Shown here: one piece after another, positions 41,672-44,314 of the stretch
Layout of the letters: every line of letters begins with the position of its first letter
Position numbering within the stretch: the first letter of the stretch is position 1
Source of the DNA: Escherichia phage ph0011
Direction: 5' to 3' (one strand)
Length of the DNA stretch: 64,000 nucleotides
Sequence record: OP557969.1
Program-made: the position numbers and the translations under genes
The notes under the pieces: generated by a model
What the model saw: the letters and a program-made list of their open reading frames with translations, nothing else
Database searches by the model: none
Told to the model about the DNA's origin: nothing

Positions 41672-41846
41672 AACATTCGATGAGTGGTATCAAATACATT
41701 ACAATATAAATGCAGCAGATATATACTATTTTAAGCTTGAATTGTATATATCATTGCGTGACCCAGTTGAGTACTATAACAACATTATCAATTGTGATGA
41801 TTTTGGTACATATTTTAGCATTGCAGTTATGGATAAAATAAGATGA
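41661..41846 (+). CDS. small hypothetical protein (61 aa), possibly related to MTHEEW family
   Basis: Track ORF 41472-41846 trimmed to ATG 41661 (MQPKTFDEWYQIHY...). Confidence 0.35.
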   Translation: MQPKTFDEWYQIHYNINAADIYYFKLELYISLRDPVEYYNNIINCDDFGTYFSIAVMDKIR

Positions 41847-42025
41847 CACACAAAGAATGGTTAGATGAACTAAAGTTCAAACATGATCATTTTGGTCTTG
41901 GTATACGCCAGGGTCATTATGATGTGTTAAAAGATAAACAACTTTTCAAATCATTTGTACTTGATGAGGATAGTAATCACTGGTACATCTATGAGCTTGC
42001 GGTTAGAGACAAAAAAATTGACTAG
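41843..42025 (+). CDS. MTHEEW-family mini-protein
   Basis: 60 aa; MTHKEWLDELKFKHDHFGLGIRQGHYDVL...WYIYELAVRD. Confidence 0.5.
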   Translation: MTHKEWLDELKFKHDHFGLGIRQGHYDVLKDKQLFKSFVLDEDSNHWYIYELAVRDKKID

Positions 42026-42070
42026 TACTGATATATATGCTATTGTTTTGTTTTAAACAGGAGAACAATA

Positions 42071-42574
42071 ATGCTCATTACGCATGTACCGGAAAGTATT
42101 ACTGAGATTTTAAGTAAAATTAATGTTAATGAATTTGAACGAACAGTTCGAAAACAAGGTACTTATCACTATAAGCACAAAGATGGTGAACATCAAATAA
42201 GCTTAGATCAGAATTATCAAACTCTAACAATTAAAATGGTTACTCGCTGGAATTTTATTCGTAAAGATACTATTATCTGTGATTTTGGTAAAAGACTACT
42301 TAGAAAATGTTTCTCTGAAACAAATGGTATCTATCCAAACCCGAATAGAATTTTCACATATAAATACATCACAGATGAAGATGTACATTTTCAAGAGAGT
42401 TTGGTATGTGATAATAAGTACTTTCCCGCATTTTCAGATAATTTGAAGTTAAAAGAACTATATAACTATTTCTTAAACGACAATATTCAGTGGGATGAAG
42501 AATTAAAACAACGACAGATAGAACGTGAAAAGAAAAAAGTCTGGACTGGTTCACATTGGATGCAACGTAAATGA
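42071..42574 (+). CDS. FQ-motif family paralog
   Basis: 167 aa; DEDVHFQESLVCDNKYFPAFSD. Confidence 0.5.
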   Translation: MLITHVPESITEILSKINVNEFERTVRKQGTYHYKHKDGEHQISLDQNYQTLTIKMVTRWNFIRKDTIICDFGKRLLRKCFSETNGIYPNPNRIFTYKYITDEDVHFQESLVCDNKYFPAFSDNLKLKELYNYFLNDNIQWDEELKQRQIEREKKKVWTGSHWMQRK

Positions 42575-42741
42575 CACATGAAGAATGGATGTCTATTATG
42601 AAAGAACGATATGATCTGTTTGGGAATGGATTTCGTGATGGTCATTACGATATTTTACGAGACAAACAACAGTTCGATTTATATGTACTAGATGAGGATG
42701 GAAATCGATGGTTCATATATGAGCTTGCATTTAGGGAATAG
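42571..42741 (+). CDS. MTHEEW-family mini-protein
   Basis: Own reading: 56 aa MTHEEWMSIMKERYDLFGNGFRDGHYDIL...WFIYELAFRE; ATGA overlap with upstream gene. Confidence 0.45.
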   Translation: MTHEEWMSIMKERYDLFGNGFRDGHYDILRDKQQFDLYVLDEDGNRWFIYELAFRE

Positions 42742-42751
42742 AAGATATATT

Positions 42752-42964
42752 ATGAGAGTAGTTATTAATCCAGCTAAAAGTTTTATGTCATCAGTTTACG
42801 GTGCTGATGATATTATCCGCATGTTACCACGTATTGAAATTGATGGAATTGAAGTGCGAAAATATGGTGATTTATATTATGTTGTAGATTCCAATGGTAA
42901 AAATATCTGTGATAGCTTATTCTTCAGTACTGAAGAAATGGAACACCTAATTATAATTGACTAA
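42752..42964 (+). CDS. hypothetical protein
   Basis: Track ORF 42692-42964 trimmed to ATG 42752 (MRVVINPAKS). Confidence 0.4.
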   Translation: MRVVINPAKSFMSSVYGADDIIRMLPRIEIDGIEVRKYGDLYYVVDSNGKNICDSLFFSTEEMEHLIIID

Positions 42965-42969
42965 CAAAA

Positions 42970-43045
42970 AGCGGCATCGCAAGGTGCGAGGTGAAACTTC
43001 CGATTTCCACCGCTGGTCGATTCGATTTCGACATGCCGCTCAAAT
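42970..43045 (+). terminator. multi-hairpin structured element / complex terminator
   Basis: Outer stem AGCGGCAT...ATGCCGCT encloses ~55 nt with inner hairpins (CGCAAGGTGCG, GTCGATTCGATTTCGAC), then CAAATTTTTC. Confidence 0.45.
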
Positions 43046-43052
43046 TTTTCAT

Positions 43053-43079
43053 TGACAACCTCAGTATATTTGCTATAAT
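43053..43079 (+). promoter_or_regulatory. sigma-70-like promoter (TTGACA-15-TATAAT)
   Basis: ATTGACAACCTCAGTATATTTGCTATAATC upstream of CDS 43088. Confidence 0.45.
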
Positions 43080-43087
43080 CACTTCAG

Positions 43088-43315
43088 ATGAATAAATCCA
43101 CGAGGTATCCAAAAATGACCAAAGCAGAACTTGTTGCATTATTGGAATCATACCCTGATGATGCATGTATTGAAGTTGTACATACTGCACGACATTTTGA
43201 CATTGAAGATGTAGTACGTTATAATGATAAAGGTGTACCAATAATGGAACTGTGTATTGGTGAAGTGAAAACTGTACCTGAATCGGAAAAACGTAAAAAA
43301 ATTAATCAGGAGTAA
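43088..43315 (+). CDS. hypothetical protein
   Basis: 75-aa ORF downstream of TTGACA/TATAAT promoter; start may be ~43115. Confidence 0.45.
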   Translation: MNKSTRYPKMTKAELVALLESYPDDACIEVVHTARHFDIEDVVRYNDKGVPIMELCIGEVKTVPESEKRKKINQE

Positions 43316-43319
43316 TATT

Positions 43320-43592
43320 ATGCATTTTGAAAAATTCAACACAAGTCGTGACACACGCATTGATGCTCTTTATGAAACCCAAGACTCAATTAGTATTCGT
43401 ACATGTAGTGGTGATGTATATCATGACTGTACTATTGGTTGGGAACAGGGAAGAACACGTAGTGCAGAATTCGATAACTATCGCTTCTACCAAGGGGACA
43501 CCACAATCTGGCCTGAAGACGTAGAAGATATTGCAATTGAAGATGAACATAAAGATGAATTTATCAAATTTAATCCCGAAACCGAATCATAA
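43320..43592 (+). CDS. hypothetical protein
   Basis: 90-aa ORF. Confidence 0.45.
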   Translation: MHFEKFNTSRDTRIDALYETQDSISIRTCSGDVYHDCTIGWEQGRTRSAEFDNYRFYQGDTTIWPEDVEDIAIEDEHKDEFIKFNPETES

Positions 43593-43614
43593 ATAACGGG
43601 ACAACACAAAAAGA

Positions 43615-43625
43615 TGTGATATAAT
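43615..43625 (+). promoter_or_regulatory. extended -10 promoter TGTGATATAAT driving tRNA block 1
   Basis: GATGTGATATAAT about 10 nt upstream of tRNA-Ser(TGA). Confidence 0.5.
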
Positions 43626-43635
43626 TATTAGTACT

Positions 43636-43722
43636 GGTGAAGTGGCAGAGTGGTTTAATGCACTTGTCTTGAAAACAAGCGAGGGTGAAAGTCCTCCGTG
43701 AGTTCAAATCTCACCTTCACCG
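43636..43722 (+). tRNA. tRNA-Ser(TGA): tRNA-Ser (anticodon TGA), type II long variable arm
   Basis: Cloverleaf by eye: acceptor GGTGAAG/CTTCACC, anticodon stem CTTGT/ACAAG with loop CTTGAAA, long variable arm, T-arm GTGAG-TTCAAAT-CTCAC. Confidence 0.75.
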
Positions 43723-43729
43723 CAAAAGA

Positions 43730-43803
43730 CGGGGTATAGCACAATTGGATAGTGCAAGAGAATTCTAATCTCTAGGTTGGGGGTTCAAGTCCCTCTACCT
43801 CGG
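43730..43803 (+). tRNA. tRNA-Arg(TCT): tRNA-Arg (anticodon TCT)
   Basis: Acceptor CGGGGTA/TACCTCG (one G-U), D-arm GCAC..GTGC, anticodon stem AGAGA/TCTCT with loop ATTCTAA, T-loop TTCAAGT. Confidence 0.7.
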
Positions 43804-43827
43804 CCTACTTTAATTAAAGGTTAAACC

Positions 43828-43992
43828 ATGACGCATGAAGAATGGATGAATGACATTAATTTTAGATATGCAGGTATCGGTAACTGGAGAAAGTATCATT
43901 GGGAAATCATATCAGACCCAGCAGAATACGATAAACTTATGAATCATGAAGTGTATCCGTGGTTCTTTATTGAAATAATGGTACGATTATGA
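43828..43992 (+). CDS. MTHEEW-family mini-protein
   Basis: Own reading: 54 aa MTHEEWMNDINFRYAGIGNWRKYHWEII...; below track cutoff. Confidence 0.45.
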   Translation: MTHEEWMNDINFRYAGIGNWRKYHWEIISDPAEYDKLMNHEVYPWFFIEIMVRL

Positions 43993-44153
43993 CACATGAA
44001 GAATGGATGAATGACATTAATTTTAGATATTCGGGTATCGGTAAATGGCTAAAGTATCATTGGGAATTCATTTCAGAGCCACATCTGTATGATAAACTTA
44101 TCAACGATTCTGCATATAAAATGTACTTAATTGAACTACTGGTACGAATATGA
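43989..44153 (+). CDS. MTHEEW-family mini-protein
   Basis: Own reading: 54 aa MTHEEWMNDINFRYSGIGKWLKYHWEFI...; ATGA overlap. Confidence 0.45.
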   Translation: MTHEEWMNDINFRYSGIGKWLKYHWEFISEPHLYDKLINDSAYKMYLIELLVRI

Positions 44154-44314
44154 CACATGAAGAGTGGATGAAACGCCAAAAAATAAAGTGGAATCCTTAT
44201 TATCTGCCATTAGATTCTAGAATGTGGGATGTTATACGTGTTAAGTGTATGTACAAAGCATATTTAAGTACTGAACTCGACGAAGAAGTACTGATGCATA
44301 TCGTGCACCGATGA
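44150..44314 (+). CDS. MTHEEW-family mini-protein
   Basis: Own reading: 54 aa MTHEEWMKRQKIKWNPYYLPLDSRMW...; ATGA overlap. Confidence 0.45.
   Translation: MTHEEWMKRQKIKWNPYYLPLDSRMWDVIRVKCMYKAYLSTELDEEVLMHIVHR

What the first reader, a model, noticed from the sequence alone, without database searches (positions are those of the whole stretch)
41843..44314. Second paralogous family: 5 MTHEEW mini-proteins (about 54-60 aa), three of them in a head-to-tail triplet next to the tRNA genes
Five ORFs begin MTH(E/K)EW and share a ...G.G.....HY/HW....D...L..........W.IYEL..R pattern: 41843-42025, 42571-42741, 43828-43992, 43989-44153 and 44150-44314. A sixth, more divergent possible member is 41661-41846. 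Each of the last three overlaps the next by ATGA. Four of the five fall below the 60-aa cutoff of the ORF track and would be missed by standard annotation. The tandem triplet immediately follows tRNA-Arg and precedes a repeat promoter.
Basis: seen in the sequence. Interest (0 to 1): 0.6.

Follow-up and report, generated by a model that had tools for sequence, protein, structure and literature searches.

The report
Jumbo-phage family of tandem mini-proteins
The five (really six) tiny "MTHEEW" genes are genuine protein-coding paralogs of a family found only in 121Q-type giant coliphages and uncultured relatives; the family is already in databases as "hypothetical protein", so the finding is real but only moderately novel, and the function is still unknown.

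Summary
All five ORFs exist at the stated coordinates and are significant paralogs. A/B are 59% and C/D 67% identical, and E is a divergent member. The window is a 121Q/Rak2-type jumbo coliphage (Asteriusvirus). All five match one uncharacterised PHROG, phrog_10970, at E 1e-24 to 1e-29. The doubtful sixth ORF F (phrog_31562) is a remote member (iterative HMM 3e-15 with no decoys; hhalign 90%, E 2e-6). They are real genes: pN/pS is 0.25 in frame against about 1.1 in shifted frames, third-position variation is in excess (p = 5e-6), and synonymous codons vary inside the invariant MTHEEW motif. Relatives already annotate them (121Q gp125-127), so "missed by annotation" is wrong. AlphaFold gives an acidic four-helix bundle (pLDDT 79.5) with no structural or sequence relative. 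The genes lie in a one-strand region full of consensus σ70 promoters and tRNA genes. Copy number varies: triplet or doublet, reordered copies, gene conversion of the 5' halves. Uncultured relatives carry runs of 8 to at least 17 members. The likely role is an early accessory or host-takeover binder set, which is inferred and not shown. Interest is moderate.

The parts
41661..41846 (+). ORF F, 61 aa, a remote (F-type) member of the superfamily (phrog_31562). It overlaps A by ATGA and overlaps the upstream 134-aa ORF by 11 nt.
   Evidence: Iterative HMM: E 1.5e-3 at iteration 2, 2.8e-15 at convergence, 0 decoys. hhalign of F-type versus MTHEEW-type alignments: probability 89.9%, E 1.7e-6 over 60 columns. 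F-type genes sit inside the tandem arrays of relatives.
41843..42025 (+). ORF A, 60 aa, MTHKEW..., member of phrog_10970
   Evidence: E 8.5e-29. Ortholog dN/dS 0.18.
42571..42741 (+). ORF B, 56 aa, MTHEEW..., closest paralog of A (59% identity). It overlaps the upstream 167-aa ORF (42071-42574, phrog_22160) by ATGA.
   Evidence: E 6.4e-27; dN/dS 0.30.
43598..43625 (+). Promoter-like site (GGGACA-16-TATAAT with an extended -10 TG) upstream of tRNA-Ser. It is the inferred start of a tRNA-Ser/tRNA-Arg/C/D/E transcription unit.
   Evidence: Consensus scan only. No other promoter-like site lies between it and C. Inferred, not shown.
43636..43805 (+). tRNA-Ser(tga) 43636-43723 and tRNA-Arg(tct) 43730-43805, immediately upstream of the triplet
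   Evidence: ARAGORN; Rfam RF00005, 62.0 and 62.7 bits.
43816..43820 (+). Shine-Dalgarno-like AAAGG, 7 nt before the ATG of C. D and E lack a good SD and start within the ATGA overlap, which suggests translational coupling.
   Evidence: Sequence read directly.
43828..43992 (+). ORF C, 54 aa, first gene of the tandem triplet
   Evidence: E 1.8e-26; dN/dS 0.14. AlphaFold2 model me6868cd3ab65: pLDDT 79.5, four helices.
43989..44153 (+). ORF D, 54 aa, recent paralog of C (67% aa identity). The first 33 nt are 97% identical to C. D is absent from 16 of 35 related genomes.
44150..44314 (+). ORF E, 54 aa, a divergent member. It shares only the first ~23 nt with D at DNA level.
   Evidence: E 4.5e-26; dN/dS 0.27.
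44327..44354 (+). Near-consensus σ70 promoter TTGACTAAATAGTTCAGTACTGTATAAT that closes the triplet unit. It is one of four exact copies (also at 44739, 45050, 46701).
   Evidence: (14 matches, all on the + strand, against 0.26 expected).

Best explanation
SHOWN: The six ORFs are real protein-coding members of a lineage-restricted multigene superfamily (phrog_10970 plus phrog_31562 plus unclassified members). The proteins are about 55 aa, acidic and rich in aromatic residues, and are predicted to fold as four-helix bundles. Among sequenced phages the family occurs only in Escherichia/Salmonella Asteriusvirus jumbo phages; it also occurs in uncultured relatives. The genes sit in a gene-dense region that carries the phage tRNA genes and, in the window, is read on one strand and studded with near-consensus σ70 promoters. 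They are packed head to tail with 1-2 nt gaps or ATGA overlaps. The family evolves by tandem duplication, loss of whole units, reordering, and gene conversion of the 5' halves, while each copy stays under purifying selection. INFERRED: (i) Host RNA polymerase transcribes them early. C-D-E are co-transcribed with tRNA-Ser and tRNA-Arg, and D and E are translated by coupling. (ii) The invariant start M-T-H-E-E-W is structural: a T-x-x-E helix-capping box plus a core tryptophan at the start of helix 1. With the HW/HY and ELxVR motifs it forms the fold core, and the variable positions lie on the surface. (iii) The paralogs act as a panel of non-essential early accessory proteins for host takeover or anti-defence. 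Each would bind a different host or defence protein on a common mini-scaffold, which would explain why old, divergent copies are all retained and why copy content differs between close relatives. My confidence is about 0.95 that it is a coding family with this evolutionary mode, about 0.7 for early expression, and about 0.35-0.4 for the binder-panel function.
For: Coding: pN/pS is 0.25 in frame versus 1.05 and 1.13 in the shifted frames; variable columns by codon position are 47/33/83 (chi-square p = 4.8e-6). Synonymous codons vary inside MTHEEW (Thr ACA 43/ACG 14/ACT 4; His CAT 44/CAC 7). Family: all five match phrog_10970 at E 1e-24 to 1e-29. There are only 21 clusters among 5.8e9 proteins and 24 among 1.8e9 representatives, 23 of them mini-proteins of 43-64 aa and nearly all starting MTH.EW. 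Distribution: 34-36 phage records, all Escherichia or Salmonella. Fold: pLDDT 79.5, helices at 3-13, 22-28, 31-39 and 44-51; pI 4.5-6.2 (E 7.9), GRAVY -0.3 to -0.9, 13-21% aromatic. Early context: 14 TTGACW-N16/17-TATAAT sites, all on the + strand, versus 0.26 expected; the T4-type late motif TATAAATA is absent next to the family genes; the related phage PA5oct relies on host RNA polymerase and its early genes are mostly uncharacterised proteins (PMC7318152). Dynamics: triplet in 19 and doublet in 16 of 35 records; order D-C-E with E4Q/M7L shared by both copies in L013/L014; C-D identity is 97% at the 5' end, falls to 64% at nt 100-132 and is 79% over the last 33 nt. Members per locus: 5-6, 9, 8, 12, and 17 clear members among 25 consecutive mini-ORFs. 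Accessory nature: subtype replacement at the same position (the A4 F-slot) and variable content between genomes more than 90% identical. Not virion-associated in phAPEC6.
Confidence: 0.5

Rival explanations
1. The family consists of packaged internal proteins, like the T4 IP locus. The conserved N-terminus would be a capsid-targeting sequence that loads diverse small proteins into the prohead; they would then be injected with the DNA to disarm host defences.
For: The family has an invariant N-terminus with divergent bodies and lies in a plastic locus beside the tRNA genes, as ipI does in T4 (my own knowledge of the T4 map and of the IP leader MKTYQEFIAE). Some members begin MTYQDW or MTYEEW. 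These phages have a T4-like prohead protease (phAPEC6 gp227c). IP-locus shuffling is described in PMC4122927.
Against: None of phAPEC6 gp094c-gp101c is among the 62 virion proteins, although a 4.66-kDa protein was detected. No conserved (L/I)-x-E cleavage site follows the motif: only A has LDE. No TATAAATA late-promoter motif lies beside the genes. The model places the N-terminus as helix 1 of the fold and not as a detachable leader. The C-terminus (ELxVR) is conserved as well.
Confidence: 0.07
2. The family has a tRNA-linked function. The mini-proteins would act on or protect the phage tRNA or translation apparatus, for example as inhibitors of host anticodon nucleases, which would explain their conserved linkage to, and co-transcription with, the tRNA cluster.
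For: C-D-E start 22 nt after tRNA-Arg with no intervening promoter. The arrays also abut or sit among tRNA clusters in JNE01-type contigs and in ERR4503900_124. phAPEC6 is suggested to counter the Prr anticodon-nuclease system (PMC7247149).
Against: F, A and B lie 0.9-2 kb from the nearest tRNA, behind other genes. The linkage may only reflect that tRNAs and ORFans share the same plastic early region, as in T4-type phages (PMC4122927). The proteins are acidic with no RNA-binding features. The identity of the adjacent tRNA differs between relatives while the genes stay the same.
Confidence: 0.1
3. The paralogs are small DNA-binding or transcription regulators (helix-turn-helix-like or sigma-binding) that control the many repeated promoters in the region.
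Confidence: 0.05
4. The ORFs are not genes. The repeats would be the conserved 5' part of a DNA or RNA element, or spurious ORFs in AT-rich DNA.
For: D and E share only the first ~23 nt, and C and D are most alike at the 5' end. The proteins are very short and no peptide evidence exists.
Against: Purifying selection is specific to the annotated frame. There is an excess of third-position variation. Synonymous codons vary within the motif. Protein-level profile similarity extends over the full length among copies with no DNA similarity. ORF length is preserved across all loci. No Rfam family other than tRNA is found.
Confidence: 0.02

Closest known systems
Small early ORFan genes of the hyperplastic regions of T4-type phages, shuffled via repeated early-promoter cassettes (PeSLs; Arbiol 2010, PMC2839356; Comeau 2014, PMC4122927)
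   Same: Both involve a large myovirus with a plastic region of very small genes of unknown function, interspersed with near-consensus σ70 promoters repeated verbatim, tRNA genes and homing-endonuclease genes. Indels and replacements occur between close relatives.
   Different: Here the small genes are paralogs of one another in tandem runs. The copy-number changes seen (triplet/doublet, reordering, conversion) occur between the gene copies themselves, not at the promoter repeats. No stem-loop partner of the promoter was detected.
T4 internal-protein (IP) locus: polymorphic small proteins sharing an N-terminal capsid-targeting sequence
   Same: Both have a conserved extreme N-terminus with divergent bodies, a variable gene set between relatives, a location near the tRNA genes, and a presumed role against host defences (PMC4122927; the T4 map is from my own knowledge).
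   Different: There is no conserved protease site, no late promoter and no virion detection. The N-terminus is predicted to be part of the fold.
Host-takeover modules of large virulent phages (the SPO1 terminal-redundancy module of ~24 small early genes; Tre genes of Twort-like phages). From my own knowledge, not tested here.
   Same: Both are dense one-strand clusters of genes mostly under 100 aa, behind strong host-type early promoters, non-essential and host-directed.
   Different: Genes in those modules are mostly unrelated to each other, whereas this is a single paralogous superfamily. No member here has a demonstrated target.
Tandem multigene families of large eukaryotic DNA viruses (poxvirus gene 'accordions', ASFV MGFs). 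From my own knowledge.
   Same: Both show lineage-specific tandem expansion and contraction of a small host-interaction gene family by unequal recombination, with gene conversion.
   Different: There is no homology, and the host domain is different. The units here are only ~161-180 nt, and most copies are anciently diverged rather than recent dosage amplifications.
phrog_10970 / phrog_31562 (uncharacterised PHROG families)
   Same: A-E are full-length members of phrog_10970 and F of phrog_31562. Orthologs that are 78-100% identical are deposited as hypothetical proteins.
   Different: PHROGs keeps the two as separate families and assigns no function. Here they are linked into one superfamily together with unclassified members.

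Membership tests
phrog_10970 (unknown function) | Full-length match to the 56-position family profile | tested here: met
   A-E match at E 8.5e-29 to 6.2e-24, covering profile positions 1-55/56. F does not match; it belongs to phrog_31562 at E 1.2e-41.
MTHEEW superfamily as defined here (phrog_10970 + phrog_31562 + unclassified) | Significant profile-level similarity over the whole ~55 aa, plus a position inside the same head-to-tail mini-gene runs | tested here: met
   The iterative HMM converged on 87 ORFs with 0 reversed-sequence decoys; the six window ORFs score 4e-20 to 3e-15 or better. hhalign of F-type versus MTHEEW-type gives 89.9% probability, E 1.7e-6. F-type genes are interleaved in the arrays.
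T4-type internal proteins (CTS-bearing) | N-terminal leader followed by a conserved prohead-protease site, (L/I)-x-E | tested here: not met
   Only A has LDE after the motif; B-E and most homologs have no such site at a fixed position.
T4-type internal proteins (CTS-bearing) | Presence in the mature virion | tested here: not met
   phAPEC6 orthologs gp094c-096c and gp099c-101c are absent from the 62-protein virion proteome, which did detect a 4.66-kDa protein. This is negative evidence from one relative only.
T4-type internal proteins (CTS-bearing) | Late (or early plus late) expression | tested here: inconclusive
   There is no TATAAATA motif beside the genes; the only one in 40-47 kb is at 42359, inside the 167-aa ORF. 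The late-promoter consensus of Asteriusviruses is not established, and no transcript data exist.
PeSL-type mobile regulatory cassettes | Repeated near-consensus σ70 early promoter | tested here: met
   Four exact copies of a 28-29 bp promoter, and 14 strict-consensus sites all on the + strand versus 0.26 expected.
PeSL-type mobile regulatory cassettes | Stem-loop/terminator immediately upstream of the promoter | tested here: not met
   No + strand terminator-like hairpin in 40-47 kb. The alignment of the four copies shows no conserved sequence upstream of -35 beyond an A/T-rich run.
PeSL-type mobile regulatory cassettes | Indels between relatives that begin or end at the cassette | tested here: inconclusive
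   The triplet/doublet difference is removal of one gene unit inside the block, not at the promoter. Other differences in the region were not mapped.
Small membrane toxins / holin-like peptides | Hydrophobic transmembrane segment | tested here: not met
   GRAVY is -0.31 to -0.86, the proteins are acidic, and the model is a soluble helical bundle.
Known anti-defence proteins (Acr, Ocr/Ard, Dmd and others) | Homology to a characterised inhibitor, or demonstrated inhibition | not testable with these tools
   No anti-defence profile library was available. PDB sequence and fold searches found no relative. PADLOC, which covers defence rather than anti-defence, was empty.

The most novel reading that the evidence does not exclude
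The MTHEEW superfamily is a phage-encoded, recombination-driven 'cassette library': one four-helix mini-scaffold with a homogenised N-terminal module, expanded to 8 to at least 17 divergent tandem copies. Each copy would neutralise a different host defence or host-factor variant. That would make it a bacterial-virus counterpart of the multigene host-range families of poxviruses and ASFV, and a rich source of new small inhibitors.
Probability: 0.2. Interest if true: 0.7.

Novelty: new member of a known kind. Interest (0 to 1): 0.35.

Why it matters
About 83% of Asteriusvirus genes have no assigned function (PMC7247149), and these phages are being proposed for therapy. This analysis turns six anonymous ORFs into one defined superfamily. 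It supplies evidence that they are translated, a predicted fold, a likely expression class and a documented evolutionary mode: unit gain and loss, reordering and gene conversion. The family is a tractable target, since the proteins are only 54-60 aa, soluble and easily synthesised. If the binder-panel idea holds, each paralog would be a candidate small inhibitor of an E. coli/Salmonella protein or defence system. If it does not hold, the family remains a clean example of how jumbo phages build ORFan content by tandem duplication.

Tried and rejected
1. Pfam, NCBIfam, PADLOC and PDB-sequence searches of all six proteins or the family profile found nothing credible. The best results were formimidoylglutamase at E 0.012 against a 381-bit cutoff, and triticain at E 0.59.
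3. A seventh member in the window: the 152-aa ORF 53904-54359 scored E 0.01 with the first HMM, but it belongs to phrog_36332 and did not score below E 0.01 with the converged profile. I rejected it as chance.
4. A DNA-repeat explanation for the conserved start is rejected by the synonymous codon variation and the frame control.
5. I considered an ATCUN-type N-terminal metal site (NH2-X-X-His in M-T-H). It is unlikely: His3 is replaced by Tyr, Lys or Phe in clear members, and the initiator Met before Thr is expected to be removed (my own knowledge). It was not tested.
6. I asked whether the 165-167-aa genes inside the arrays of L015/L018/L019 are homologs of the window's 167-aa ORF. phmmer found no link at E < 1e-3. 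Only L013 has a clear ortholog, and that is of the 162-aa ORF.
7. Literature: there is no paper containing 'MTHEEW', and the Asteriusvirus genome papers read do not discuss paralogs or this region.
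Full report
**1. What is in the sequence**

All are on the + strand and all begin MTH(E/K)EW. A regular-expression scan of the six-frame translation of the whole 64 kb found that start only in these five ORFs.

- Against the six-frame translation of the window, BLASTP gives A-B 59% identity (E about 4e-22) and C-D 67% (about 3e-25).
- A/B versus C/D score 1e-3 to 1.6e-7, and E versus A scores 1.3e-5. Unrelated ORFs score no better than about 0.08.
- An HMM of the five scores them at 1e-29 to 1e-31, with the next ORF at 0.01.
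- C/D and D/E overlap by ATGA, as do F/A and the upstream 167-aa ORF/B. E itself is followed by a 71-nt spacer, so "each of the last three overlaps the next" is one overlap too many.
- tRNA-Ser(tga) 43636-43723 and tRNA-Arg(tct) 43730-43805 directly precede C.
- A TTGACT-16-TATAAT promoter follows E at 44327-44354, and its exact sequence recurs at 44739, 45050 and 46701.

**2. Where the window comes from**

Megablast places the region in the 121Q/PBECO4 group of jumbo coliphages (genus Asteriusvirus, about 350 kb, Rak2-like). It is 94.5% identical to phage Turkey3 over 75% of 5 kb. The window has 33% G+C.

These relatives annotate every one of the ORFs as "hypothetical protein": 121Q gp114, gp118, gp121 and gp125-127, Turkey3 XMR01376-79 and XMR01384-86, phAPEC6 gp094c-101c, and others.

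**3. Are they genes?**

I extracted orthologs from six GenBank genomes and the window.

- Nei-Gojobori dN/dS (ratio of means) is 0.18 for A, 0.30 for B, 0.14 for C, 0.24 for D and 0.27 for E.
- Pooled variable columns by codon position are 47/33/83 (chi-square p = 4.8e-6).
- Pooled pN/pS is 0.25 in the annotated frame but 1.05 and 1.13 when the same alignments are read in the +1 and +2 frames.
- Inside the invariant MTHEEW motif, synonymous codons vary freely: Thr ACA 43/ACG 14/ACT 4, His CAT 44/CAC 7, Glu GAA/GAG.
- D and E share no DNA similarity beyond the first ~23 nt, yet they align as proteins over their full length.
- Rfam finds only the seven tRNAs in 41-48.5 kb.

The constraint is therefore on the protein. 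The DNA-repeat alternative is rejected. Direct evidence of translation is still lacking.

**4. The family and its limits**

All five ORFs hit a single PHROG, phrog_10970 (unknown function, 56 positions), at E 6e-24 to 9e-29. They have no Pfam, NCBIfam, PADLOC or PDB-sequence relatives.

- A profile search of 5.8 billion proteins returned only 21 clusters at 90% identity.
- An exhaustive HMMER scan of 1.84 billion cluster representatives returned 24 clusters. One of these is a 541-aa repetitive protein matched only over short stretches. The other 23 are mini-proteins of 43-64 aa, and nearly all begin MTH.EW.
- In the phage collection the family occurs in 34-36 records, all Escherichia or Salmonella phages of this genus. 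It was not found in the Klebsiella, Erwinia, Pectobacterium, Cronobacter or Serratia Rak2-like phages that share flanking DNA.

**5. The sixth ORF**

F (41661-41846, 61 aa, phrog_31562) is not significantly similar to any single member (best E 0.02 in a six-sequence database). I ran an iterative HMM search over 768 ORFs from the window and related loci, with the same number of reversed decoys. F scored E 1.5e-3 at iteration 2 and 2.8e-15 at convergence, and no decoy was ever included (best decoy E 0.32).

An independent profile-profile comparison of seven F-type sequences against 39 MTHEEW-type sequences gives 89.9% probability and E 1.7e-6, aligned end to end over 60 columns. F-type genes, ending in "...GTYFSIAV", are interleaved with MTHEEW-type genes in the arrays of relatives.

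The converged profile found no further member anywhere in the 64 kb on either strand.

**6. Structure**

With a 39-sequence alignment, AlphaFold2 models C as a compact four-helix protein with helices at 3-13, 22-28, 31-39 and 44-51 (mean pLDDT 79.5, pTM 0.51). A shallower alignment had given pLDDT 66 for B with the same topology.

The conserved positions are mostly aromatic or aliphatic: W6, H/Y-W around residue 25, Y/F around 35, and ELxVR near the end. My reading is an inference from the model and from general helix-capping rules. T2-x-x-E5 would be a capping box that starts helix 1 right after the initiator Met, and W6 would be a core residue. This would explain the striking N-terminal invariance without invoking a signal sequence.

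**7. Genomic setting and expression (inferred)**

The strict pattern TTGACW-N16/17-TATAAT occurs 14 times in the window, always on the + strand, against 0.26 expected from shuffles. All ORFs of the region are on the + strand, and only 3 T4-type late motifs (TATAAATA) occur on that strand, none beside the family genes.

A relative of the clade, PA5oct, depends on host RNA polymerase, and its early genes are mostly uncharacterised proteins (PMC7318152). I therefore infer early, σ70-dependent expression.

For the triplet, the only promoter-like site upstream is GGGACA-16-TATAAT with a TG extension at 43598-43625, ahead of tRNA-Ser. So tRNA-Ser, tRNA-Arg, C, D and E probably form one transcript, closed by the next promoter at 44327. 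C has an AAAGG 7 nt before its ATG. D and E have poor SD sequences and ATGA overlaps, which suggests termination-reinitiation coupling.

None of the phAPEC6 orthologs is among the 62 virion proteins detected by MS, although a 4.66-kDa protein was detected.

**8. How the family evolves**

- *Unit loss or gain.* The tandem block is a triplet (487 bp) in 19 records and a doublet (326 bp, C+E) in 16 of 35 records.
- *Mosaic similarity.* C and D are 97% identical over nt 1-33, fall to 64% at nt 100-132 and are 79% identical over the last 33 nt.
- *Reordering and concerted evolution.* In two metagenomic contigs (L013, L014) the block reads D-like, C-like, E. Both leading copies share MTHQEWL.DINFRYAGIGNWRKYHWE: the substitutions E4Q and M7L are present in both copies there and in neither copy in the window. 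The D-like copy is C-like at its 5' informative sites. This is the signature of gene conversion or unequal crossover between neighbouring copies.
- *Cassette replacement.* At the F position, phage A4 carries a different subtype (MTLDEW...YGTMYAIAR). The window lacks the MTHEEWMSKQHKEHD type that 121Q, SP27 and UE-S1 have.
- *Expansion.* JNE01-type genomes carry 9 members. Short metagenomic contigs carry 8 members in 1.9 kb (L015) and 12 in 6 kb (L018). A 78-kb contig, logan ERR4503900_124, has 25 consecutive 45-68-aa ORFs separated by 1-2 nt or overlapping by 4 nt. Seventeen of them are clear members and several more are weak ones, and the run ends at a tRNA cluster. That contig has only patchy 72-75% nucleotide identity to known Asteriusviruses.

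The array copies are highly divergent from each other, so they are old and individually retained, not recent dosage amplifications.

**9. Most likely function**

What is shown is a lineage-restricted, tandemly evolving family of small soluble acidic helical proteins. Each copy is under purifying selection, the gene content varies between close relatives, and the genes lie in a region with the hallmarks of early expression.

By analogy with the early accessory genes of T4-type hyperplastic regions (PMC2839356, PMC4122927) and the host-takeover modules of other large virulent phages (my own knowledge), I consider one explanation most likely. The paralogs would be a panel of non-essential early proteins, each binding a different host or defence protein on a shared mini-scaffold. 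I give this about 0.35-0.4.

The weaknesses are that no partner, phenotype or homology supports it, and that dN/dS within orthologous groups shows purifying rather than diversifying selection.

The rivals are:
- T4 IP-like packaged proteins (0.07). These are disfavoured by the virion proteome, the lack of a cleavage site and late promoter, and the structural role of the N-terminus.
- A tRNA-linked role such as anticodon-nuclease inhibition (0.1). The linkage is suggestive, but half of the window's members are not adjacent to tRNAs, and the neighbouring tRNA differs between relatives.
- Non-coding repeats (0.02). This is rejected.

**10. Comparison with what is known, and novelty**

As sequences these genes are already in GenBank and PHROGs as uncharacterised proteins. 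No paper in the searchable library mentions the motif, and the Asteriusvirus genome papers I read do not discuss the region.

The new points are:
- the demonstration of coding constraint;
- the merger of phrog_10970 and phrog_31562 with unclassified members into one superfamily;
- the predicted fold;
- the recombinational dynamics;
- the large arrays in uncultured relatives.

In kind, this is a further example of a small early ORFan family in a plastic region of a large myovirus, unusual mainly for being paralogous and tandem. I rate it "new member of a known kind", with interest 0.35. The most novel reading not excluded is a recombination-driven cassette library of mini-inhibitors, analogous to poxvirus/ASFV multigene families. 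I give that about 0.2 probability, and it would merit about 0.7 interest if shown.

Noticed in passing
window 40782-41270 and 42071-42574 (+): The 162-aa and 167-aa ORFs are both phrog_22160 (E 6.6e-85 and 1.5e-14) and share a similar N-terminus (BLASTP E 5e-5). They form another paralog pair in the same region. The second overlaps family member B by ATGA.
   Followed up: partly
window, 14 sites from 2659 to 61170, all on the + strand; exact repeats at 44327, 44739, 45050, 46701: Strict-consensus σ70 promoters (TTGACW-N16/17-TATAAT) are about 50-fold enriched and are all on one strand. Four are verbatim copies of TTGACTAAATAGTTCAGTACTG(A)TATAAT, with little conserved flank and no detectable upstream stem-loop. 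This is a PeSL-like feature without the SL.
   Followed up: partly
window 46740-46831 (+): ARAGORN calls a tRNA-Ser with anticodon ACT, and 121Q gene 131 has the same call. An unmodified A34 is unusual, and the gene sits directly before tRNA-Met and tRNA-Asn.
   Followed up: no
window 43730-43805 versus L002 (121Q) 3816-3897: The tRNA in the slot between tRNA-Ser(tga) and gene C differs between close relatives. It is Arg(tct) here and in UE-S1, and Leu(taa) in 121Q. This looks like tRNA cassette replacement while the flanking genes stay the same.
   Followed up: no
L008 5167-9644 (logan ERR4503900_124, 78-kb contig; also held as L007): This is a run of 25 consecutive 45-68-aa ORFs with 1-2 nt gaps or 4-nt overlaps. 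Seventeen are clear MTHEEW-superfamily members. The run is followed by a tRNA-Leu/Gly/Ser/Arg/Met cluster and a T5orf172/MUG113-domain gene. The contig belongs to an unsequenced distant relative of Asteriusvirus.
   Followed up: partly
L015 49-1943; L018 286-4379; L019 640-2721: Further uncultured lineages carry 8-12 family members within 2-6 kb, each with a 165-167-aa gene embedded in the run. phmmer did not link those larger genes to the window's 167-aa ORF at E < 1e-3.
   Followed up: partly
L002 (121Q) 2344-2682: At the position where the window has gene A, 121Q is annotated with three very short CDSs (63, 99 and 162 nt; gp115-117) before its A-like gene gp118. This may be a decayed or rearranged family copy.
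   Followed up: no
L001 6664-7006; L003 7368-7485; L005 7156-7326; L009/L010 about 10000-10526: HNH/NUMOD4 homing-endonuclease genes lie a few kb downstream of the triplet in several relatives, within the tRNA region. This is consistent with a recombination-prone hyperplastic region.
   Followed up: no
window 53904-54359 (+): This 152-aa ORF (phrog_36332) gave a weak first-round hit to the family HMM (E 0.01) around a 'THEEW'-like stretch. The hit did not score below E 0.01 with the converged profile and is probably chance.
   Followed up: yes
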